From Eledone cirrhosa (taxonomy: Eukaryota), in contig OZ024740.1 in assembly GCA_964016885.1 (NCBI GenBank), forward strand, positions 172,918,001-172,982,000: DNA of 64,000 nt, written 5' to 3'. Below, piece by piece: positions 892 to 61,480 of the stretch. Below the pieces are notes generated by a model. That model saw only the letters and a program-made list of their open reading frames with translations. It ran no database searches and was not told the DNA's origin. Both the position numbers and the translations under genes were made by a program. The first letter of the stretch is position 1. Every line of letters starts with the position of its first letter.

Positions 892-1093
892 AGTGACTTA
901 GGTCCGCTACTGTTTGAAGCGCTCAACCCGTGTGGGAGCTAGATAGATTTTGAGTTTATGTTGGTTGTATACCAACACCTCAGTATGCAGGCTGGAGCAC
1001 TCGACGAAGTGCGCAGGTTGGTTTGGTTACTCCGGAGTAGTGTAAAATAAAGTTAAATAAAAGTCAAATGATTAAAATTTAGCTTCGTTTATT

Positions 1094-1148
1094 ACTGCTA
1101 TATATATTTCAGTGACAGCCATCTTTGGCTGTGACCTCTTCAGGCAGT
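1094..1148 (-). ncRNA. Type I hammerhead ribozyme in PLE terminus
   Basis: Reverse complement of the 6085-6139 motif. Confidence 0.85.
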
Positions 1149-2339
1149 TTGAATTAGTAATCTATAGACAAGTACATATGTTGTTTAGGTGTATGATATT
1201 GTCAATACTCTGATATGCCCAGTTCCTTGTTGGGTTGTTAATTCACTGGGGAACTGGAGTCATATGAATTCAAACAAACGAATTTTAGTGTCACAGGTCC
1301 CCTTCTCCTCTCATTGGTCAGTTATTAGTGTTGTCATTGTTGGAGTTAGCTTAAAAATTGATAAAATGGTAGAAGGGACAAGGTGTTGAAGGAACAAAAT
1401 ATCAAAAAGTGTGTCAAACTTCCCATTGTTCAGTTCTGAGAGCATTCCTCAGTCAGAAGTCTATAGAATTCTTTCTGGGGTGAGGCTCCCTGTAGTGTTT
1501 ATGCCTGCTATTGTTCAGTACATTTGACCTCGACCATTATTTTGGTACTGTTGTTGTTGTAGTGGTCAGCTTATATCTTGCTGCTGCTAACAGTTTAGAA
1601 GTATTCAGTTTGTGTTTTCTCTTCATCCCACCCGCCACCATCGTAGTGGTGGCGGCGGGGGGGGGGGTTATTTCATGTATATGAAGAAATATAAGGCAAT
1701 AAATGAAGAAAACAGAAGATAAATAAATAATATAATAAAATAAAATAATTAATATAATTTGTGTAATTTGAAAATAAATAAATAAATAGAGAATAAAGAA
1801 TAAAGAGTAAATGAGAGATTGGTGAAAAAGTAATGATAATGTATATGGAGAAGTGAGAAATAATGTAGGATAAAGTGTGTGTGTGTGTGTGCTATAACCA
1901 ATCTCAAGGTCAGAATATGTTGGATAGATTGGTATGATACAAGATGTTAAGATGAGATATTCAATGTGTTTGTGTTATAATCTATCTCAACTTAAAATAA
2001 ATATAAATATAAGGTTATACAGTGAAGAGGGCAGAAAACAAATAACAAATTAATATAGAGAAATCAAGATTTAAGATTGGAACTTTAAAGTCAGAAATCT
2101 GGTAAATTAAAAGTGTTTGTGTTATAGATGTTGGCCAGATTATTATGGCTGTGTCCGATTCTGTCTCTAGGCTATCATGGTGTCTGCTCCGCCTGGGTTG
2201 TTCCCTATGGCTTGAGGGGAGTTCACAACCTAGGGTGTAGTAATTGTCCATATAGCTTGAGGGAGGTCTGGCCGAGAGGTGTTTTCATGTTCTGTAGAAG
2301 TCCCTTTAGCTTGAGGGGAGTTCACATCTTCTTGTGTTG

Positions 2340-2977
2340 CTACTGTCCATATATTTTGAGAAAGGTCCCGGCTCTAAGGTGTCTGCATGTCCCGAAGAAG
2401 TCGGTTCTGAGGTTTATCAGGCCGCTTCCACCTCTTAGTATCTCGAGGGTCTCGTTCAGGCATAGTTTGCATATGTAAGATCCCCCTTTATCGGGTGGTA
2501 CTTTCCTGATTATGTACCAGGCCAGAGAGTATGGGGTCCTGTCCAGCTTAAGCTTCCAGATCAGGTCGGAGAGAGCTGTGCTTTTCCTTTTGGCCTCCTT
2601 CTTGAATGAATGGCGATGGTTGTACCAGCGGTCCTTAAAGCTCGTTGATGTGGCTCCTATGTAGAGGTGTTCGGAGTTGGGGGTTTTAACCCTACAACCG
2701 TACACTATGTTCTTCTTGAGACATTCATTACCAAGGGGGCATGATTCGGGGTTTCTACAGTTGCAGAGGGTGGGCGGCCTCTGCGTGCTTAGATTAGGGT
2801 TCTCATTATGTGTTACATGTTGGTCTTCCCCCATGCTCGGTGGGGGGTCCTTGGGTCTGTTTGTGTTTCTTGGGTGGGCTCTGGGTCCCCCCTTTCCTCC
2901 TTTCACATGGTTCTGCTGAGTGTTTGTATTGCCATCTGCTGGTTGTGTGTGGTTTTTAAGCCTACTTCTGTTGATGC
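2340..2977 (-). pseudogene. 5'-truncated GIY-YIG endonuclease portion of the PLE (inverted-repeat arm)
   Basis: CNCR..CPLGNEC..NIVY...LYIG....FKDRWYNH..SF...STALS..IW.LK...CKLCLNE...INLR..FFGTCRH. Confidence 0.88.
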
Positions 2978-4882
2978 AAGCTACTACTCCTCAATCTCAC
3001 CCATAGTACTTAATAAGGCCCTATTTTTAGCGATGTCCAATACGGACCTAACCCGAGAGGAGGTGAGCATCATCCACGCCGCAAGAAAGACCTTAATCCG
3101 CTTCGATGGAGACCTGTGGACCAGGAGTGATTGGCCAAATAACTTTGACATTACGATGGGCTCCAGCGACTCAGCGCAGGTAACGGACCTGGTTGGGCTC
3201 TACCTGCTGAAGCAGATAAAAGATGAAATCCCCTGCCTGGGCGGCGGATTATATCGTGACGATGCTCTATTCACAGTACATGACCACAGCACCAATATGT
3301 TGGAGGGTATGAGGAGGCGTATTCGCCATTTCTTTAAGAACCAGGGGCTCAGCATAGAAATAGACCCAAATAGGAAGGTAGTTAACTTCCTAGATACCAC
3401 CCTAAACCTGAACACCGAGCAATACTACCCCTACCACAAGCCCAACGAGAAACTAGTATATGTTAACGCCAAATCAAACCACCCTAGATCCATAACCAAG
3501 GCAGTGGTGAAGAGTGTCTCGGACAGGATCTCCAGCCTGTCCGCAAGTAAGGAAATATTCAACAACCACGCGGAATATTACAACGCAGCTCTAAAGAAGG
3601 CGGCACATGGACAAAATATAACATATAGTCCGAAAAGCCGGGAGGTGGATAGCCCAACAGACACCCACAACCGCGTTACCAGAGGGGGGAGGGCGAACCC
3701 TAACAATACAGGCAGAGCAAAATCAAATAAGCACCATGTACCAGACACCACCACACGGGCGGCGGGGACTAGTGCGCTTGACCACGAGATGGAGCACAAT
3801 ATGAGTAGCAGTCTCAGGCGTGATGCTAACTACCCCAGGACGGACAACCCCAACCGCAGGACACGTGGGGGGGGGGAGGAAACGGGCGACCACCCCACGA
3901 TGGATCTCCCGGGGCAGACAACCATCACCCCACAAATCCGGACCGTGAAGATAACAGAAAGTATAGAGCCCAAAAGGGAAGCAACAGTGCGGAAACCACC
4001 AGCAAACCAACAAATCTCCAACAAATCACGAAGCCCCCAACCCACACATATAGGAGGAGACACCGACAAATCACGTGGTACAACCCACCCTACTCAGCGG
4101 CCCTAAAGAAAAGCTTGGCCCGATTGTTCTTTGGAGCACTTGACAAATGCTTCCCGAGGGACCACGGATACCACAGGATCTTCAACAGACACACTGTGAA
4201 GCTCTCGTATTCCACCACGAGAAATTTGGCCCAACACATAGCTAGCATCAACAGAAGTAGGCTTAAAAACCACACACAATCAGAAGATGGCAATACAAAC
4301 ACTCAGCAGAACCATGTGAAAGGAGGAAACGGGGGACCCAGAGCCCACCCAAGAAACACAAACAGACCCAAGGACCCCCCACCTAGCATGGGGGAAGACC
4401 AACATGTAACACATAATGAGAACCCTAATCTAAGCACGCAGAGGCCGCCCACCTTCTGCAACTGTAGAAACCCCGAATCATGCCCCCTTGGTAATGAATG
4501 TCTCAAGAAGAACATAGTGTACGGTTGTAGGGTTAAAACCCCCAACTCCGAACACCTCTACATAGGAGCCACATCAACGAGCTTTAAGGACCGCTGGTAC
4601 AACCATCGCCATTCATTCAAGAAGGAGGCCAAAAGGAAAAGCACAGCTCTCTCCGACCTGATCTGGAAGCTTAAGCTGGACAGGACCCCATACTCTCTGG
4701 CCTGGTACATAATCAGGAAAGTACCACCCGATAAAGGGGGATCTTGCATATGCAAACTATGCCTGAACGAGACCCTCGAGATACTAAGAGGTGGAAGCGG
4801 CCTGATAAACCTCAGAACCGACTTCTTCGGGACATGCAGACACCTTAGAGCCGGGACCTTTCTCAAAATATATGGACAGTAG
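2976..4882 (+). CDS. PLE RT (5'-truncated), linker and GIY-YIG endonuclease, with one frameshift near the G10 run at 3867-3876
   Basis: RT motifs FDITMGSSDSA, GGLYRDD, VNFLD, PYHKPN, SNHP. Second frame open 3809-4882 carrying ITWYNPPYS and the GIY-YIG/CxxC/CRH motifs. Confidence 0.9.
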
Positions 4883-5025
4883 CAACACAAGAAGATGTGA
4901 ACTCCCCTCAAGCTATAGGGACTTCTACAGAACATGAAAACACCTCTCGGCCAGACCTCCCTCAAGCTATATGGACAATTACAACACCCTAGGTTGTGAA
5001 CTCCCCTCAAGCCATAGGGAACAAC
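4850..5025 (+). repeat. Degenerate ~25-nt repeats (ctcccctcaagctataggga / ctccctcaagctatatggaca) at the ORF end and 3' UTR
   Basis: Four related copies visible, mirrored at ~2200-2370. Confidence 0.6.
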
Positions 5026-6084
5026 CCAGGCGGAGCAGACACCATGATAGCCTAGAGACAGAATCGGACACAGCCATAATAATCTGGCCAACATCTATAA
5101 CACAAACACTTTTAATTTACCAGATTTCTGACTTTAAAGTTCCAATCTTAAATCTTGATTTCTCTATATTAATTTGTTATTTGTTTTCTGCCCTCTTCAC
5201 TGTATAACCTTATATTTATATTTATTTTAAGTTGAGATAGATTATAACACAAACACATTGAATATCTCATCTTAACATCTTGTATCATACCAATCTATCC
5301 AACATATTCTGACCTTGAGATTGGTTATAGCACACACACACACACACACTTTATCCTACATTATTTCTCACTTCTCCATATACATTATCATTACTTTTTC
5401 ACCAATCTCTCATTTACTCTTTATTCTTTATTCTCTATTTATTTATTTATTTTCAAATTACACAAATTATATTAATTATTTTATTTTATTATATTATTTA
5501 TTTATCTTCTGTTTTCTTCATTTATTGCCTTATATTTCTTCATATACATGAAATAACCCCCCCCCCCCCCCCCCCCGCCGCCACCACTACGATGGTGGCG
5601 GGTGGGATGAAGAGAAAACACAAACTGAATACTTCTAAACTGTTAGCAGCAGCAAGATATAAGCTGACCACTACAACAACAACAGTACCAAAATAATGGT
5701 CGAGGTCAAATGTACTGAACAATAGCAGGCATAAACACTACAGGGAGCCTCACCCCAGAAAGAATTCTATAGACTTCTGACTGAGGAATGCTCTCAGAAC
5801 TGAACAATGGGAAGTTTGACACATTTTTTGATATTTTGTTCCTTCAACACCTTGTCCCTTCTACCATTTTATCAATTTTTAAGCTAACTCCAACAATGAC
5901 AACACTAATAACTGACCAATGAGAGGAGAAGGGGACCTGTGACACTAAAATTCGTTTGTTTGAATTCATATGACTCCAGTTCCCCAGTGAATTAACAACC
6001 CAACAAGGAACTGGGCATATCAGAGTATTGACAATATCATACACCTAAACAACATATGTACTTGTCTATAGATTACTAATTCAA

Positions 6085-6139
6085 ACTGCCTGAAGAGGTC
6101 ACAGCCAAAGATGGCTGTCACTGAAATATATATAGCAGT
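6085..6139 (+). ncRNA. Type I hammerhead ribozyme in PLE terminus
   Basis: actgc-CTGAAGA-g-gtcacagcc aaagat ggctgtcac-t-GAAA-tatata-TA-gcagt, immediately followed by AATAAA. Confidence 0.87.
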
Positions 6140-6183
6140 AATAAACGAAGCTAAATTTTAATCATTTGACTTTTATTTAACTT

Positions 6184-6244
<61 letters not shown>

Positions 6245-6245
<1 letters not shown>

Positions 6246-8921
6246 AGCATTTGAAAACTATATAAAATATACAATATAAAATATGAATTATAATTTTTAA
6301 AATGAATTATAATTTTTAAAATGAATTATAATTTTAAAAAATGAATTATAATTTAAAAAAATATAAGAATATAGAAAATAAAATACACAGTATAAAATAT
6401 GAATTTGAATTATAATTTCCTTATACCCATCATAGGAATTTTCAAAATATCCTTCTTCAAATCTTTCAGTACGTTTATCAAGAAAAGTTTTTCAAGGAAA
6501 AAATTTTCAAGAAAAAACTTTTCTTTTAAGAGAGTTATAAGCAATCATATGAAGGAATCTAATGAATTATCGATAGGTTTAATAAAGATGAGTTATGTAT
6601 TACATTTTATATATATATTTAAAAGTTGAGTTCAATCTATGTTTGCAAGAACTGAAAAGATTATTCCTTAAATTAACAGAATTCTTACTTTTTAATATAA
6701 AGAATATTTCCTCTATACAAAGAGCACAATTTTCAGAAGAAGCATTGAATGGAGGAGCTTTGGAGATAATATTCCAAAGTAAAGAATAGTTAGTGTTCTT
6801 TGATTTTAGGCCCCATAGTAAATTCGATAGAGAAGTTGAAGATTTTTTATTTATATTCGTAAAAGAGCATTTATGGTTATTAAAACGGGACTTAAAATCT
6901 GTGGAGGTAGAGCCTACGTAATTAAATGAATTTAAATTAGTTTTTACATTACAATTATATAATTTATTTTTAACTAAACAATTGTTATTTAACGGACAGT
7001 TAGATTTATTTCTACAGTTACATTTATCAAAATTTAAGTTTCTAGGAGCCGTATTATTCAGTTGGATATTGCTGGGGTTATTAATGGTATTCTGGTTAGG
7101 TTTTAAGTTTCTATTATTAATTCTATTAATATTCTGCGCTAAATTACTGGTGGTTGAATACGTTAATTGTATAGTATGTCTATTAAATATTGAGTAATAC
7201 CTATGTGTTCTAGGGAAGCATTTATCTAGAGCTTTAAAGAATAATTTAGCAATAGGAGTTTTAATACTTAATGAGAAAGGAGGAGCGACCATAATATATT
7301 CCTAGTTCTATTTCTTTTTTGGTTTTTCGAATTATTGTAAGGTTTTCTATTATAGTTGTTAAAATTATGGTTATTTGTCATATCATTATTATCAATGTAT
7401 TTAATTTTATTACTATATCCAGCTCTACCTAACGCTTCGTTATAATATTGTTTCTACTTTAGGCACAAGGCCAGCAATTACCCAGTGCATTACTGGTACT
7501 TTATTTTATCGACCCCGTAAGGATGAAAGGCAAAGTCAACCTCGGCGGGATTTGAACTCCGATGGTAAAGGGACGTAACTATGCTGGAAAGCATGGTGTC
7601 TGACCCTCTACCGATACTGCCAATCCACTGCCCTTCGTTATAATATTGCGCTTTATCTTCAAAAATATTCTTATTAGCTGAAATTCTAGAAATACGTTGC
7701 TGCACAGAGTTTACTATAGTGTTTTTAACGGATCTGGGGTGATTGGAATTAAAATTAACGTAGTTTAAGTTCTCGTTTATTTTGTGAAATGGATTATAAA
7801 GACCTGTGTTAAAGTTTAAAGTTACATCTAGAAAGTTAACTATTTTATAATTGTTCTCTATTTCTACTTTAAGATTAAGGTAATTAAAAAATTGTATAAT
7901 TTCATTTCTTTTCCTATTTATTTCACAATTATTATTATTTTCTATAAGTAATAGCATATCGTCGCGATATAAACCTCCGGTCATCTCCGGTATTTTCCTA
8001 TGTAGAGTATTATTAATAAAAAGCCCCACAAGATCCGTTATTCGGGCGGAATCGGATGACCCCATAATATCGAAATTACTATCTCTGTTTGCTCTAGTCC
8101 AGAGGTGGTTGTTAAATTTAATTGATGTTTTCCGTGCAGTTAAGATAATGCGCATTTCATTACTAGTTAAGTCTGTATGTTTAAATGCATATGTTAGGGC
8201 TTTATTAAGTAGATTAGGAGTGATGGATGAGTAATAATTAGCAATATCCAATTGAATAAACTTATTATTATAGTTATATTTAATGTCTTTAAACCAGTCG
8301 ATAACTTCGTTAGTTCCTTTCCATAATTTTAAATAAGATAATTATTTAATTTGTTGTATGATTCTGTCTAAAATGTTCTTGCTAAGTATGCCAAGGTCCG
8401 ATTTAGATGGTGCAATTAATCTAACAGGTAATTCAATTTCAAAATTCCTTTTATGGTCCTTCATATTAATTTTTGGTTTCCTTGGCATGAAGGGTTGTGT
8501 CCTATTTTCAATATCTAATTCTTGCATTATGTAAGAAGCTTCTGTATTCAATTTTTCAAGTTCATCATTGGTTGTTTTTTTGTATTTCTTCCTTAATTCC
8601 TTTAATATAAGATCGCTATAAATATCCTTTTGCATTCCATAGAGATTGTTGGTTTTATCTGACTTGACTAGAATTTTTTCCGTTTTTTCAAAGCTTTCTA
8701 TATTATTTTTGAGATTTCTTAGGTAATCCTGGCCTATGAAGTTGTTTTTTTTAAATTTAATGCTTTGAATGATAGAGATGATTTCATTTTCAAAATCCAT
8801 TAGTAGTTTGTTGGAAGGTGGATTCTTTTTAGATTTGAAGATTCTATCGAGATTATACACACAAACTACTGACCAAATATTGTTTGGGTTAACACATCTG
8901 TCAAATCAATTAGTAGTGAAG

Positions 8922-8973: not shown

Positions 8974-9153
8974 CACCGAATATTTATTATAATGCTCGGT
9001 GTGTTTGTAAACAAACATCCCGAATTAAGCCGTACAGTGTCTAGCAACCATTTGTTCAACACTCACTCGATATGCAAATTAGGCTGCTCAGCCGTTAATA
9101 TGCATAAGGAAAGTATATACTTTCAGACGTTCAATCATCTGGCAGGAAGGTAT

Positions 9154-9196
9154 ACGTTGCTGACGATAGCTAATAAGCTTGAAACTAGTACAGCGT
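9154..9196 (+). ncRNA. Type I hammerhead ribozyme (family A)
   Basis: acgttg-CTGACGA-tagct aata agctt-GAAA-ctag-TA-cagcgt. Confidence 0.87.
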
Positions 9197-9584
9197 TCCT
9201 TTGTCAGTGTTGAACAAATGAGCAACGATGGTTGCTAGACACTGTACGGCTTAATTCGGGATGTTTGTTTACAAACACAACGAGCTTTATAATAAATGTT
9301 CGGTGAATCCACACGTATATATATATATATGTGTGCATGTATGTATATGTATATACATACTACTGTACGTCTGTATACATATATGTATGTACGTATACAT
9401 ACTTATATTTAAGTAACAGCCGTACTAAGAGTGAGAAATGAAATTTCGTTTCATTCTTTCCGTTTATCGTTTTCGGTGCGCCCGGCCGATTAACTCACAC
9501 GATATGCAAATTAGGTGCTCAGCCGTTAATATGCACAAGGAAAGTATATACCTTCAGACGTTCAATCATCTGGCAGGAAGGTAT

Positions 9585-9627
9585 ACGTTGCTGACGATAG
9601 CTAATAAGCTTGAAACTAGTAGAGCGT
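9585..9627 (+). ncRNA. Type I hammerhead ribozyme (family A, second monomer)
   Basis: Same core, with one stem I mismatch (gagcgt). Confidence 0.8.
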
Positions 9628-9890
9628 TCCTTTGTCAGTGTTGAACAAATGAGCAGTGATGGTTGCTAGACACTGTACGGCTTAATTCGGGATGTTTGTT
9701 TACAAACACACCGAGCATTATAATAAATGTTCGGTGAATCCACACGTATATATATATATGTGTGCATGTATGTATATGTATATACATACTACTGTACGTC
9801 TGTATACATATATGTATGTACGTATACATACTTATATTTAAGTAACAGCCGTACTAAGAGTGAGAAATGAAATTTCGGCTCATTTTTTCC

Positions 9891-9939
<49 letters not shown>

Positions 9940-13993: not shown

Positions 13994-14525
13994 AACACTT
14001 TTGACAAGAGATTATCGTATATTCAGTAGGTTATAACAATTGTCTATATTGCTGTGTGTGTCATATGTTGTCCTCCTGTAATTGTCAGTTTATCCTAAAA
14101 GCAAATCTCAGAACTACTACGACGATTCAGATTTGAAGTTTAAATAATGAAAGACTGAAACCAATTAGAAGAAAGGACATGATAGTTAGCATAGTAACAC
14201 CTGCGTCAACGATAACTAAGTACACTGAGCATACTAATGCATAATTCTAATCAATCTCGCTCTGCTCTCACATGCCCATACATATACAGATGCAATATCA
14301 CAAATGCGCGCACAAACACACGCATACAACACTCACATGTACACCTATAATTGTACACACATACATACACACATATATATGGTGTGGGGAGTGTGTGTGT
14401 TCCTGCGTATGAATGTGTATTTATATCCATATATATATATATATACATACACATTTATAAATACATACATATATATGTGTGTATATACTATATATGTATA
14501 TATATGCGTGTATATATATATATAT

Positions 14526-15235
14526 ACAAGTTAATATAAATTAATATATATGATAAACACCAATGCCAACATATAGGTGTTTGTATTGTAAATGACTAAG
14601 TTAGCTAGATTGAAAAATACTAATTATAGTAATACAGTTTGCCTGTCTCGATTTAAAATAATAAATCAATAAAAACAAACCATATTGGCAAATGTTGGTA
14701 TTGGTGTTTATCATATATATTAATTTATATTAACTTGTATTACACGGCTCAGAAATACTTCTTTTTTTGAGCTATTTCATTGTAAAGGACTGCCTGAGTT
14801 TTGAACTCTTTATTCATAGTATCACTGCTCCTTATGTAGAGCTAACTTTAGCCCCATATATACGACTGTTATTTCTAGCAGCACGAGTATGCGGCAGCTA
14901 GACACTGAAAAACCTCGTGCGTTGATCAATCTTTTTAAATATTTTGAAGTGAAACATACCAATTTTTCAGGGTACTTGCTGAGGAGATCTGATTGTGGTA
15001 TTTTTTCATTCTTTCACTTTTTCATTTATCGAAACTTATTTGGATTTCAAAGTTTAAACTTATCTACGGAACATGTTTGATTTTGAAATTTAAATTTGTC
15101 CAAGTACCACGGCCATTTGCCAATATGGTTTGTTTTTATTGATTTATTATTTTAAATCGAGACAGGCAAACTGTATTACTATAATTAGTATTTTTCAATC
15201 TAGCTAACTTAGTCATTTACAATACAAACACCTAA
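14526..15235 (+). mobile_element. Family B non-coding HHR element (~543-nt monomer at 14692-15235) with inverted arm 14526-14694
   Basis: Reverse complement of 14526-14694 equals 15114-15233 joined to 14692-14738. Confidence 0.8.
14972..15107 (+). ncRNA. Type I hammerhead ribozyme with extended stems II and III (family B)
   Basis: gtacttg-CTGAGGA-gat...atc-GAAA-c(ttatttggatttcaaagtttaaac...gtttgattttgaaatttaaattt)g-TC-caagtac. Perfect 7-bp stem I, GUC site. Confidence 0.82.
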
Positions 15236-15657
15236 ATGTTTTGTGCGAAGTTAGGTGTGGTGCTGTAGGAGAGTTTGATGGTGTTTTTGTTGATTATGTT
15301 GTTGTAGTGGTGTTGTAGTGGGAAGTGTTTTTCGATGAGTCTAAAGAAGATTTTCCCGATAGGTGTTGCCATCTCGGCATTATGGGGAGGATTGAACCAC
15401 GTTACGTTGCGTGAGCGGCGGTGTCGCCTGCTGGTTCCGCTAAGGGAAGCTGGATAAAAGGATATTTCCTCCCGGAAGCCACTCCGCTTGAGGGCCTGGT
15501 TGTAATGAGGCGCGTGTTCGTCGAATATCTGCTCATTAGCGGACAAACGAGATATACGAAGGGAGTTGTTTTTAACCACATTATTGGTGATATTTCTAGG
15601 ATGGTTAGAGAGGCGCTTGATGTAGTGCAGGTTGTCGTTTGTTTTCAAATGCCATGA
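15232..15657 (-). pseudogene. Naiad-like PLE fragment (RT thumb and linker)
   Basis: SNHPRNI..RISRLS..Y.QALKRSGF..NVTWFNPP..IGKIFFRLIEKHFP..NTIKLSYSTTPN. Confidence 0.85.
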
Positions 15658-16391
15658 TAGACTTATTTGTGTTTACAAGAAATTTTAACCAATCCTCTTG
15701 ACAACTACAATCTACCCATATAAGGGAGTACCCCCTTGACAAGTTCGGCTATTTACTCACCAGGCTAAACATTATAATTTAGTCCAGAAATAGCCGTCGA
15801 AACGGCTTGAGCTCTGCCGTGGGTCATACTTTTTCCTATATATATATATATATATATACATTTATAAATAAATACATACATATATGTGTGTGTGTATTTA
15901 TAAATGTGTGTATATATATATATATGGATATAAATACACATTCATACACAGGCACACACACACACCCCACACCATATATATGTGTGTATGTATGTGTGTA
16001 CAAATATATGTGTACATGTGAGTGTTGTAAGCGTGTGTTTGTGCGCGCATTTGTGATATTGCATCTGTATATGTTAAAGTATTATTCTAACCGTATAGGG
16101 TATTTACTTAAAAAACTTTGCCTTAGTATATGCCTCAGACGAGCCCCATTGGGCGAAACATATGTAAGAGCTTTATAAAGATATGTTTTAACGGCTTGTA
16201 ACTCTTTCACTAATCATTTTGCCTATCACCACTCTGCTTATCCTTGTCCACTAAATATTAACCTTCTCTAATATTTAACCCTGATAACCCAAGCATCGAG
16301 CACTTATACACCCGCTTTTGGCATGTAATACTCTGTATCGCACTTCTTTATACCTCCTCTTTCTATCCTCTTTTACGATACTGTAACCTTT

Positions 16392-17854: not shown

Positions 17855-18001
17855 TAATATTTGATGAACATTTACATGTTATAGTTGCAATTGACTAATA
17901 AGATCGCTAGAGTGAAAAATCTTAATTCAACAACAGCTCAGAAGCGATTCCTAGAGCTGAAATGATTGTAAATGACCTCTTTGAGTCTAAACTCTAAGCT
18001 A

Positions 18002-18082
<81 letters not shown>

Positions 18083-18084
<2 letters not shown>

Positions 18085-18571
18085 GGGTAAAATACTATTT
18101 CATTTCTCACTCTTAGTACGGCTGATACTTAAATATAAGTATGTATACGTACATACATATATGTATACAGACGTACAGTAGTATGTATATACATCCATGC
18201 ACACATATATATATATATATACGTATGGGTTTACCGAACATTAAATATAATGCTCGGTTTGTTTGTAAACAAACAGCCCGAATTATTAGCCGTACAGTGT
18301 TCGGCAACCATCGTTGCCATTTTGTTCAACATTGACAAAGGAACGATGAACTAGTTTCTAGCTTATTAGCTATCGTCAGCATCGTATACCTTTCTGTCAG
18401 TCGATTGAACATTTGAAAGTATATACTTTCCTTATGCATATTAACGGCTCAGCAGCCTAATTTGCATATCGAGTGAGTTAGTCGGCCGGGCGTACCGAAA
18501 ATGATAAACGGAAAAAATGAAATTTCATTTCTCACTCTTAGTACGGCTGATACTTAAATATAAGTATGTAT
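18083..18571 (-). mobile_element. Family A copy with HHR at 18343-18385
   Basis: acgatg-CTGACGA-tagctaataagcta-GAAA-ctag-TT-catcgt, with ~50-bp terminal redundancy. Confidence 0.83.
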
Positions 18572-19171
18572 GTCATTTGCAATTGTAACACATGTATACT
18601 TATATCTATGTTCATCTCTGTCATATATTCAATTATATTACACGACTCGGAAAGATTCCCTTCTTTGAGCTATTTAATTGTAAAAGACTATTTTGAGTTT
18701 ATAACTCAATCTATGATATTCTCGGCTCCTTACGTAGAGCTAACTTTAGTCTAAAAAACCCGGCTGCTATTTTTAGGTGCATGTGTATGAGACGCGCTAG
18801 GTACTGCGACATGTGCTTTTATATCAGCATATCGTCTTCTTAGATCCTTTGAAGAGCACAGGAATTGTAGCTTTCACTTAATAATTCTTGCGAAACAGAT
18901 TTAAGTCTGTCTGGGTATCAAAGGCTGTTGCCCGATATAGGTTTGTTATTTTTATTGATTTATTACTTTGAATCGAGTCAGGCAAACCATATTGTTTTAA
19001 ATTAGTATTTTTTCAACCTAGCTAACTTGGTCATTTGCAATTGTAACACATGTATACTTATATCTATGTTCATCTCTCTCATATATTCAATTATATTACA
19101 CGGCTCGGAAAGATTCCCTTCTTTGAGCTATTTAATTGTAAAAGACTATTTTGAGTTTATAACTCAATCTA

Positions 19172-19175
<4 letters not shown>
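18572..19175 (+). mobile_element. Family B-related copy, 458-nt monomer plus ~145-nt redundancy, decayed HHR at 18843-18918
   Basis: 18572-18716 repeated at 19030-19175. TTGAAGA-gca...tgc-GAAA-cagatttaagtctg-TC. Similar to 14740-14900 and 15125-15230. Confidence 0.75.
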
Positions 19176-19233
<58 letters not shown>

Positions 19234-26045: not shown

Positions 26046-26049
26046 GATA

Positions 26050-26707
<658 letters not shown>

Positions 26708-40717: not shown

Positions 40718-41990
40718 TATATATGTAGAAGGTGAGTAATATTGTAGAACAATAAAACTATGCATATATCAGATAAGTAGCACTCAACAGTTGGTAGAAC
40801 TGGAGTATACATTAAAGAAGAAATTAAAAGATGGTTAAAAAAGTTCCATAATTTTATTATGCGCATTTGGAAAACAACATCATCCTGGGACAAAAAATGT
40901 GTTCTCATCAGATAAAATAAGGTAACATGATATGAGGCCTAAAAACACTTGTCAGCAGGAAAGTGCAAAGTCTACATATGACAGAAATATAATAGTAAGA
41001 AAGAGATAGGAAAATAGAAGAAAAGGAAAGAAGAAGGAGAAAAAGGAAAAAGAAAGAGAAGAGATGAAAAAAGGAAAAAAAAGAAAGAAGGAAGTGAGAG
41101 AAAGAGAAAGAGAGAGAGTAAGAGACTTTTGATCAGGAACGCTGTCAAAATGAAAACAGCTGTAAATAACGGCTAAAAAGTAAATTGATGAGGTGTATGT
41201 GCGAATATTATAGATGGTATTCAAATATTAGAGGTCTAAAATATAGAAACTGGGTATATTATTTTATATTGGGTTTAAATGCTAAACATTGGATTAAGAA
41301 GTGTAAAAATGTATTAATAAAATAAAATTAAATTAAAATTAAATTAAAATTAAATTAAAATAAGTATAAAAAAGGTTTTTAAAATAAAATAAAATAAAAT
41401 AAAAAAATAAAAATAGTCTATCTTTGTCAAAATTAAAAATTTCCATTAAAAATCAATATGTGGGGTATACTATTTAAATATTATTTAATATCAACAAGTA
41501 AATAAAAGAAATTGGTAGAATGATTTATAAACGTAGAAAAACATATGACGTCATAACTTGTTTACAAAATCTACGAAGGTTTGAACGAAAATTTAAGGCG
41601 ATAGAAAAAAGGTCAATGGCTTAATATATGCTGAGAAAACTAAATTAATATATTGTAGAATATAATGAAATATGTGTAAAAAAATTAACCGTTATTCGTG
41701 GAATATGTTATAGGACATTAGCTATATACTTTGTGAAAGGTCTTGTCTTGAAGGATTTATGATTGCAAAGACCAAATAAATCTGTTCTTCTATTTATTAT
41801 TGAGTTGAAATTCGAGATAATGGTAAATTTTTCAACTAGACATAAATTACAAACACTAGATATGGAAGCATGGGAGTATAGAGAAGCGTTGTAGATTTTA
41901 CTCCAAGAAATTTCGTAATTGATGTTTTTGTCTTTAAAGGACCAAATAAGTTCTGAGAGTGCGGTGTTGGTCCTTATAAGTGGATATGTA
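40718..41990 (-). mobile_element. Third Naiad-like PLE 3' fragment (GIY-YIG end, long AT-rich 3' region, HHR with CAAA for GAAA at 40851-40918)
   Basis: TALSELIWSFK...CNLCLVEK...INRRTDLFGLCNH. Near-identical to 60048-61185. Confidence 0.85.
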
Positions 41991-42067
41991 AATGTAGAAG
42001 AATCGAGATGCTTCAAAAGCTACTTTCCCCTCGTGTACAATCTTTCCCCATTTACTACGATCAGCAG

Positions 42068-59859: not shown

Positions 59860-60047
59860 TATTAAAATAACAGATTAAAGTTTAAGCAAAGAATCGCTGC
59901 TTTCACCCTTAACGGGATCTTCTGAAACTAAATCAATCTGTGAACGCAGAAGTAAATATTTCGAAAAGCGTTACAGACTATATATATATAATTTTTGCTG
60001 GACCAGCAATCGCTCTGTATAATCAGTTCCTGATTATTACTGGAATT

Positions 60048-61480
60048 CTATAATTTTATTATGCGCATTTGGAAAACAACATCATCCTGGGACAAAAAAT
60101 GTGTTCTCATCAGATAAAATAAGGTAACATGATATGAGGCCTAAAAACACTTGTCAGCAGGAAAGTGCAAAGTCTACATATGACAGAAATATAATAGTAA
60201 GAAAGAGATAGGAAAATAGAAGAAAAGGAAAGAAGAAGGAGAAAAAGGAAAAAGAAAGAGAAGAGAGGAAAAAAGGAAAAAGAAAGAAGGAAGAGAGAGA
60301 AAGAGAAAGAGAGAGAGAGAGAGATACTTTTGATCAGGAACGCTGACAAAATGAAACAAGCTGTAAATAACGGTTAAAAAGTAAATTGATGAGGTGTATG
60401 TGCGAATATTATAGATGGTATTCAAATATTAGAGGTCTAAAATATAGAAACTGGGTATATTATTTTATATTGGGTTTAAATGCAAAACATATGATTAAGA
60501 AGTATAAAAATGTATTAATAAAATAAAATTAAATTAAAATTAAATTAAAATAAGTATAAAAAAGGTTTTTAAAATAAAATAACATAATATAAAAAAAAAT
60601 AAAAATAGTCTATCTTTGTCAAAATTAAAAATTTCTATTAAAAATCAATATATGTGGGGTATACTATTTAAATATTATTTAATATCAACAAGTAAATAAA
60701 GGGAATTGGTAGAATGATTTATAAACGTAGGAAAACATATGACGTCATAATTTGTTTACAAAATCTACGAAGGTTTGAACGATAATTTAAGGCTATAGAA
60801 AAAAGGTCAATGGCTTAATATATGCTGAGAAAACTAAATTAATATATTGTAGAATATAATGAAATATGTGTAAAAAAATTAACCGTTATTCGTGGAATAT
60901 GTTATAGGACATTAGCTATATACTTTGTGAAAGGTCTTGTCTTGAAGGATTTATGATTGCAAAGACCAAATAAATCTATTATTCTATTTATTATTGAGTT
61001 GAAATTCGAGATAATGGTAAATTTTTCAACTAGACATAAATTACAAACACTAGATATGGAAGCATGGGAGTATAGAGAAGCGTTGTAGATTTTACGCCAA
61101 GAAATTTCGTAATTGATGTTTTTGTCTTTAAAGGACCAAATAAGTTCTGAGAGTGCGGTGTTGGTCCTTTTAAGTGGATATTTAATTGTAGAAGAATGAT
61201 TATAGAATCTTGCTTTAAAAGAGGTAGATGTAGAGCCAATATAGGTATTGGTACTAGTTACCACTTTACATTCGTATACTAGGTTTTTATCAAGACAGAA
61301 ATCACTAAGAGGACAATTAGTTCTAATCGGGCAGTTGCATTTACGATTAAGATTATTTACAGTGTTATTGGCAAGTGGCCCAGGATTAATTATATTAGGA
61401 ACTGGAGTGGTGGAATTAATTAAAGGAGGTGCTAAAGTTTCCAGATTTACATTACTCTTTGATGTATTCCTCAAAATTAC
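60048..61480 (-). mobile_element. Naiad-like PLE 3' fragment, GIY-YIG ORF 60902-61474
   Basis: CNC..CPL...C...NLVY..TYIG..FKARFYNH..TALSELIW..CNLCLVE..CNH. Confidence 0.87.

What the first reader, a model, noticed from the sequence alone, without database searches (positions are those of the whole stretch)
14526..15235. Family B: the inverted arm spans the monomer's tail-to-head junction; HHR has an unusually long stem III
Seen: the reverse complement of 14526-14694 reads as the END of the plus monomer (15114-15233) joined to its START (14692-14738). That junction is absent from the plus copy, so the template must have been circular or multimeric (~543 nt). The HHR at 14972-15107 has a perfect 7-bp stem I, a GUC site and a ~20-bp imperfect stem III. 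A stem that long should allow monomeric cleavage, unlike minimal PLE HHRs. A relative at 18572-19175 is a 458-nt monomer plus 145 nt.
Basis: partly seen in the sequence, partly recalled or inferred. Interest (0 to 1): 0.75.

Follow-up and report, generated by a model that had tools for sequence, protein, structure and literature searches.

The report
Retrozyme whose ribozyme stem was duplicated
This is one copy of an abundant non-coding repeat that carries a hammerhead ribozyme motif and was likely pasted in by a Penelope-type jumping gene; its mirrored end is ordinary for such elements, but its very long third stem is a 37-base internal duplication that has barely changed while the rest of the repeat diverged by 30%, which suggests it matters to the RNA.

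Summary
Observation confirmed. The inverted arm joins 15114-15234 to 14692-14740, and a type I hammerhead motif lies at 14971-15108. The join is ordinary: it is the unit boundary of a 544-nt tandem repeat and is present in direct orientation in sister copies, so it shows a longer-than-unit template, not a circle. The repeat is a non-LTR retrozyme superfamily (units about 500-545 nt, thousands of candidate copies). Copies end in (TA)n at two fixed sites 82 nt apart; 32 of 34 inverted insertions carry one of each. That is the known Penelope tail footprint. This copy lost its long end and is fused to a Hydra-clade Penelope fragment. New here: the long stem III is a 37-nt tandem duplication, with single-unit and freshly duplicated relatives still in the genome. 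It is 69/70 identical between subfamilies that are 70% identical elsewhere, while stem I changes by compensatory pairs. A roughly 19-bp pairing between the 5' flank and loop II is also conserved. Cleavage, expression, circularity and the mobilising partner are untested or not found. This scan reported the same kind of element repeatedly elsewhere in this genome.

The parts
14524..14572 (-). Inverted arm, outer piece: unit positions 1-49, ending at the family's short fixed 3' end in (TA)n
14574..14694 (-). Inverted arm, inner piece: unit positions 423-543; 5'-truncated; overlaps the plus copy by 3 nt (ATG)
14692..15240 (+). One 544-nt retrozyme unit plus about 5 nt of the next; its own 3' end is missing
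14741..14822 (+). 82-nt tail between the short (14740) and long (14822) fixed ends; inferred RT start sites
   Evidence: 20 ends at each site among the 27 loci
14946..14970 (+). 5' flank predicted to pair with loop II (14989-15020), about 19 bp; pseudoknot or alternative fold
   Evidence: 17 of 17 copies from 6 subfamily groups, at most 1 of 200 shuffles as stable
14971..15108 (+). Type I hammerhead motif; predicted cut between 15100 and 15101
15030..15102 (+). 37-nt tandem duplication (15030-15066 and 15067-15102) that forms the long stem III; the first half lost GUC, the second lost GAAA
15236..15240 (.). 5-nt microhomology (ATGTT) at the fusion of retrozyme and Penelope fragment
   Evidence: (loose ends before 15236)
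15241..15646 (-). Fragment of a Hydra-clade Penelope ORF (RT thumb to linker); the endonuclease part and 3' end are missing
15646..15839 (+). Inverted 3' end of the same Penelope family, at its short fixed end in (TA)n
18572..19177 (+). Sister-subfamily copy (458 + 148 nt), ends at the long fixed end; hammerhead broken by a 35-nt deletion

Best explanation
This is one copy of a high-copy non-coding tandem repeat with a type I hammerhead motif (a non-LTR retrozyme), likely reverse-transcribed into (TA)n by a Penelope-type enzyme from an RNA longer than one unit. Shown: tandem units, two fixed 3' ends 82 nt apart, one short plus one long end in inverted insertions, (TA)n flanks, scattered 5' ends. 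Inferred: this copy lost its long end by a microhomology deletion, at or after insertion, that fused it to a neighbouring Hydra Penelope copy. Shown: the long stem III is a 37-nt tandem duplication and is nearly invariant across diverged subfamilies. Inferred (about 0.6): it is kept by selection because it locks the core-proximal helix, letting each unit cleave without a partner, helped by a 5'-flank/loop II pairing. Whether the template was a circle or an uncleaved multimer is open (about even).
For:: 3578 first-look candidates, 40 scored, 30 loci at 89-100%; direct tandems with 536-545 nt spacing (L003, L018, L022); five full units in L122; 32 of 34 outward-facing end pairs in 79 retrozyme loci are short+long, 2 have an odd end, none short+short or long+long; the neighbouring Penelope family gives 12 of 14 (1 short+short, 1 odd) with an 80-nt tail. 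The window composite has two short ends, as expected for two insertions that lost their long ends; 270 of 270 within-locus comparisons agree at diagnostic sites (119 mismatches expected at random). Stem I is 8/8 paired through compensatory changes in 10 of 11 copies from five subfamily groups; the closing pair is G-C in 14 and A-U in 12 of 26 rows; position 7 varies freely. Duplication: halves 29/37 identical in L016, 0 of 5000 shuffles; 7 single-unit and 2 freshly duplicated relatives. Stem III 69/70 identical against 333/475 for the rest; 26 of 27 captured units picked by a non-stem-III query match 67-69/70. Literature: inverted 5'-truncated copy and one-sided tail (PMC8557442), two internal RT start sites (PMC11167929), retrozymes as PLE derivatives (bioRxiv 10.64898/2026.07.22.740005).
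Against: No autonomous partner found: no pLTR similarity to the four Penelope families tested (best z 2.6) or beside 20 pattern-picked loci. No both-side covariation inside stem III among 26 close rows. Stem III changes since the fresh duplication are no better than random for two of three copies (96 and 93 of 500; 21 of 500 for the most derived). The tree of the flanks needs 3 changes of the duplicated state, so one origin is not shown and module exchange is possible. Without the pseudoknot the active fold lies 3.1 kcal/mol above the minimum, and with the flank included the nested minimum loses stem I, so the flank pairing could be inhibitory. None of 48 5' ends read lies within 5 nt of the predicted cut, so the DNA holds no trace of cleavage. 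In the vertebrate preprint only 1 of 9 tested retrozyme dimers cleaved. 22 of 29 sister copies have CAGA for CUGA.
Confidence: 0.82

Rival explanations
1. One reading: the arm was copied by rolling round a circular monomer RNA made by hammerhead cleavage and ligation.
For: Units and arms of one insertion are homogeneous (270 of 270); some variants private to a locus are in all its units (L149, L152; 11 direct-pair cases); arrays of five units exist in a young subfamily; the circular unit folds well (z -7.2, 25 shuffles); circles are shown for coral, mussel and axolotl retrozymes (PMC7229834). The plus copy spans almost exactly one unit.
Against: The join exists in linear genomic tandems. Long arrays carry variants shared by subsets of units (L122, L149), which one pass round one circle does not make. 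Some sister-subfamily loci mix alleles of different lineages (L057, L034). In the anole PLE, uncleaved RNA was the dominant substrate in vitro (PMC11167929).
Confidence: 0.4
2. The long stem III is a neutral duplication of a self-complementary unit that folds by construction and was spread or homogenised by template switching between subfamilies, not kept for ribozyme function.
For: A doubled hairpin pairs automatically (29 pairs at birth). The derived subfamily's stem III matches L003 better than its flank-tree sisters L028/L030. Sister subfamilies with 5-7 bp stems also reached thousands of candidates.
Against: It stays 93-99% identical to L003 in all 17 other rows of the window's and the derived subfamilies while the stem I/II region falls to 53-65%, which would need repeated exact sweeps. 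The two U-U mismatches next to the core were repaired stepwise in the later subfamilies.
Confidence: 0.3
3. The window composite is one chimeric event in which the RT switched between retrozyme and Hydra Penelope RNA, making that family the mobilising partner.
For: Direct fusion at a 5-nt microhomology; both families target (TA)n, end in TAT and have tails of about 80 nt.
Against: A single event should leave one short and one long end, but both are short; no sequence similarity between the two 3' regions; no other direct fusion seen among the 90 loci mapped.
Confidence: 0.1
4. The arm arose at DNA level (fold-back or replication template switch) in a satellite, without reverse transcription.
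For: The locus sits at the centre of a 248-nt inverted repeat; short microhomologies at the joints.
Against: The arm ends exactly at the family's short end, and the short+long rule holds at dispersed loci on many contigs.
Confidence: 0.04

Closest known systems
Metazoan non-LTR retrozymes (Cervera and de la Pena 2020, PMC7229834, parts 2-3 of 6 and passages; Li, Clavereau, Pollet, bioRxiv 10.64898/2026.07.22.740005, parts 1-3 of 5)
   Same: Non-coding, low-GC tandem and dispersed repeat with a type I hammerhead per unit, no LTR, self-paired predicted circle, unit length inside the 51-972 bp range of the preprint.
   Different: Longer than the 170-400 nt circles tested; stem III of 25-29 predicted pairs instead of 1-2 bp; Penelope-type inverted ends and tail were not found in the 2020 text (0 hits for 'inverted' and 'tail'); expression and circularity untested here.
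Insertions of endonuclease-bearing Penelope-like elements, Hydra clade (Craig et al. 2021, PMC8557442, passages and section 11; Frangieh et al. 2024, PMC11167929, parts 1-2 of 4)
   Same: Partial tandems, inverted 5'-truncated copy, tail at one end, (TA)n targets, two internal RT start sites.
   Different: No ORF; tail 71-82 nt rather than 30-40; one-sidedness is near strict here (32 of 34) where the paper says 'often'; both ends finish in TAT and match the target, whereas the anole start sites had no target homology.
Large-helix-III hammerheads of fungal and protist PLEs, and engineered dimer-mimic helix III (Cervera and de la Pena 2014, PMC4209133, passages)
   Same: A long helix III in a PLE-linked type I hammerhead; the fungal one cleaves as a monomer; extending helix III gave single-motif cleavage.
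   Different: Here the extension is a natural tandem duplication including GAAA and GUC, with its intermediate stages still in the genome.
Pseudoknotted hammerheads (Perreault et al. 2011, PMC3088659, passages)
   Same: Base pairing between the stem I side and loop II in place of loop-loop contacts.
   Different: The examples quoted there are 4-6 bp; the pairing predicted here is about 19 bp and could be a switch.

Membership tests
Non-LTR retrozyme | Short tandem repeats, several to many genomic copies | tested here: met
Non-LTR retrozyme | Type I hammerhead motif in each unit | tested here: met
   32 of 39 units pass the core, GUC and stem I check; covariation
Non-LTR retrozyme | Non-coding, no LTR | tested here: met
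   six-frame translation shows no long frame in the unit; no tblastn match of Penelope proteins inside it
Non-LTR retrozyme | Self-cleavage of the RNA | not testable with these tools
   folding only
Non-LTR retrozyme | Expressed as unit-length circular RNA | not testable with these tools
   needs raw RNA reads or a blot
Non-LTR retrozyme | Sequence kinship to the pLTR of an autonomous PLE | tested here: inconclusive
   none in 4 families and 20 loci; only a small part of the genome's PLE families was seen
PLE-type insertion | Partial tandem, inverted 5'-truncated copy, tail at one end | tested here: met
PLE-type insertion | (TA)n target | tested here: met
   target duplication cannot be resolved in (TA)n
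Autonomous Penelope-like element | ORF with RT and GIY-YIG endonuclease | tested here: not met
   absent from the repeat; the ORF at 15241-15646 belongs to a separate family
Minimal or dimer-dependent PLE hammerhead | Stem III of 0-2 bp with palindromic loop | tested here: not met
   25-29 pairs predicted
Hydra clade (neighbouring fragment only) | C-terminal endonuclease with CxCX5C linker, (TA)n targets | tested here: met
   natural ORFs of L067 and L070 show the linker as defined in section 11; no RT tree was built

The most novel reading that the evidence does not exclude
A retrozyme lineage duplicated 37 nt of its own ribozyme, turning a marginal stem III into a 25-29 bp helix that acts as a built-in second hammerhead half; the helix has been frozen by selection since, works with a 19-bp pseudoknot switch to cut each unit as a monomer, and yields circles that a Penelope RT dimer copies from two fixed sites at once. 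The genome keeps the whole series (5, 7, 11, 29 bp), a natural experiment in ribozyme evolution.
Probability: 0.3. Interest if true: 0.65.

Novelty: new variant of a known kind. Interest (0 to 1): 0.42.

Why it matters
What hammerheads do for Penelope elements and retrozymes, and how the inverted, one-tailed insertions form, are open questions. This family offers a graded natural series of stem III lengths with matching stem I covariation, so the link between monomer cleavage and spread can be tested directly. The near-strict short+long pairing of ends gives a sharp prediction for a two-site priming model. The junction itself is ordinary and should not be used as evidence of circular RNA.

Tried and rejected
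Rfam scans: no hammerhead hit on the motif. Pfam on the ORF fragment: nothing useful. My first idea that the unit is a decayed GIY-YIG frame: rejected, no tblastn match. Partner search by alignment to Penelope 3' regions and around 20 of 616 pattern matches: none found. Sequencing runs: no RNA holder listed; three contig sets of one sample, kind unrecorded, laid; no listed contig bridges the 15240 fusion, so that joint rests on the assembly alone. Pile-up of 5' ends at the cut site: none (0 of 48, read by eye; the main arms were selected to cover it). Private-variant tests for circle versus multimer: inconclusive. One origin of the duplication: not shown; 34 rows used, 8 loci missed by the extraction pattern and L098 dropped because its upstream part is an inverted arm. 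In one search four of 23 loci were missed by the pattern; they match the whole 516-nt unit at 96-98%. Duplicate loci of one array were dropped before counts (L004, L013, L019, L051, L061, L143, L148, L153-155, L161, L163; L056 also). Fold probabilities lack tertiary terms and a positive control, so they are comparative only. Literature searches for a natural stem III duplication (0 papers) and for twin priming with tails (1 unrelated paper), found no description; the library lacks most subscription papers, Lunse et al. 2017 was not held, and no supplements were read, including the hammerhead file of PMC8557442, which may hold related motifs.

Full report
Observation. The reverse complement of 14574-14694 is identical to 15114-15234 and that of 14524-14572 matches 14692-14740 with one mismatch, with one T between. 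The join is real and the unit is 544 nt. A type I hammerhead motif lies at 14971-15108 with an 8-bp stem I, an intact core and GUC at 15098-15100. Rfam misses it.

The family. A search of the 3.0-Gb own genome with the middle of the unit gave 3578 first-look candidates, of which 40 were scored and 30 fetched. The relative at 18572 belongs to a sister subfamily of about 498 nt (2674 candidates) with the same join. A derived 516-nt subfamily (1879 candidates) forms arrays of five units. A contig of a public run also reads 15235 back to 14692. The join is thus just a point on a tandem unit.

Fixed ends. Copies end in (TA)n at two sites: unit positions 49 and 131 (20 ends each in 27 loci) and the equivalent 67 and 148 in the sister subfamily. 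In 79 loci of three subfamilies, 32 of 34 outward-facing end pairs have one short and one long end, two have an odd end, and none has two alike. The neighbouring Penelope family behaves alike, with an 80-nt tail (12 of 14). An inverted 5'-truncated copy with a tail at one end is described for Penelope elements (PMC8557442, passages), and two internal RT start sites bounding the tail were shown in vitro (PMC11167929). I infer priming from both target strands, one at each site. All parts of one insertion carry the same diagnostic alleles (270 of 270), so they come from one RNA variant.

This copy. Its left end is the short end (14524). On the right it runs 5 nt past the join and continues, through ATGTT, into an antisense fragment of a Penelope ORF (15241-15646) and then that family's own short end at 15839. 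Intact relatives of that ORF show the CxCX5C linker of the Hydra clade. Two short ends and two missing long ends fit two adjacent insertions fused by a deletion better than one chimeric event. This explains why the plus copy lacks the join. No similarity links the retrozyme to this or three other Penelope 3' regions, and no partner lay beside 20 further loci.

Circle or multimer. The 5' ends are scattered; none of 48 lies within 5 nt of the predicted cut (by eye), so cleaved linear monomers were not the main template. Homogeneity within loci fits a circle, but variants shared by subsets of units in long arrays and mixed alleles in some sister loci fit multimers, template jumps or later DNA-level change. 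The question stays open.

The hammerhead. 32 of 39 units pass a core, GUC and stem I check. Position 7 varies, the stem I closing pair is G-C in 14 and A-U in 12 of 26 rows, and stem I stays 8/8 paired through several compensatory changes across subfamilies (10 of 11 copies). This is good comparative evidence of a selected ribozyme fold; activity is not shown.

Stem III. It is a tandem duplication of 37 nt running from the base before GAAA to two bases after the cleavage triplet (15030-15066, 15067-15102; 29 of 37 identical in L016, 0 of 5000 shuffles). An exact 25-nt pattern finds 636 duplicated-type sites against 11 for the single-unit pattern (older copies are undercounted). Of those 11, seven are single-unit copies with a sister-type stem I, two are fresh duplications with GUC in both halves, one is a variant and one a deletion in an array. 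Sister subfamilies have 5-7 bp and one shows slippage growth. Predicted stem energy goes from -3.7 (single) to -22.9 kcal/mol (fresh duplication); the window copy has -17.6. The tree of the flanks places short stems outside but needs three changes of the duplicated state, so a single origin is not shown. Between the window's subfamily and the 516-nt one, stem III is 69/70 identical and the rest 333/475; copies picked without using stem III agree (26 of 27 captured units at 67-69/70). The U-U mismatches beside the core were repaired stepwise. Against selection: no double-sided change inside stem III among close copies, weak results against a random-change null for two of three copies, and signs of module exchange.

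Stem II and the flank. Nested folding leaves stem II weak and puts the active fold 3.1 kcal/mol above the minimum. Following a lead from an earlier scan note, I tested pairing of the 28 nt before stem I with loop II: a duplex of -11.5 to -23.2 kcal/mol forms in 17 of 17 copies from six subfamily groups, with changed but paired sequence, and at most 1 of 200 shuffles matches it (in the window 14946-14970 with 14989-15020). It may be a long version of the stem I-stem II pseudoknot (PMC3088659, passages) or an inhibitory fold.

Comparison and verdict. It works like, and on the testable features is, a metazoan non-LTR retrozyme (PMC7229834; bioRxiv 10.64898/2026.07.22.740005). Short palindromic stem III and dimer cleavage are the PLE norm (PMC6765202, passages), but a large helix III with monomer cleavage is known in fungal PLEs (PMC4209133, passages). 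I found no description of a natural duplication making such a stem (limited library, no supplements read). Earlier notes of this scan report the same kind of element and footprint many times in this genome but no look-alike of this sequence and none holding all my stem III duplication words. Verdict: new variant of a known kind, interest 0.42.

Noticed in passing
window 14280-14524 and 15837-16074: The whole composite sits at the (TA)n centre of a 248-nt inverted repeat (89.5% identical), apparently older than the insertion; origin not worked out.
   Followed up: partly
window 16127-16170: Small hammerhead-like motif with CAGA in place of CUGA and a very short stem III (Rfam Hammerhead_3 at 16.9 bits, below threshold); unrelated family.
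   Followed up: no
L032-L059: 22 of 29 sister-subfamily copies have CAGA rather than CUGA at the core, so a core change was carried through amplification.
   Followed up: partly
window 18572-19177 (L031) and L060: Both carry the same 35-nt deletion that removes the 5' strand of stem I and the start of the core; shared descent or a recurrent deletion.
   Followed up: no
L056:1974-2673 and L106:1597-2886: Minisatellites (27-nt and 83-nt period) made from the sequence just before the short end lie inside inverted insertions.
   Followed up: no
L149:801-2510: Three variants alternate between successive units (ABAB), as if a dimer had been copied twice; two other variants do not fit.
   Followed up: partly
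window 1045-6188, 6621-8611, 40844-42003, 60046-61345: At least three further Penelope families, 30-45% identical in protein to the one at 15241, one as a large inverted composite.
   Followed up: partly
window 9061-9896, 17999-18571, 26048-26660: Another non-coding repeat with a period of about 430 nt and inverted parts; no similarity to this family. One copy abuts the 18572 relative.
   Followed up: no
window 32668, 53684, 53813: Further type I hammerhead-like motifs inside short palindromic insertions.
   Followed up: no
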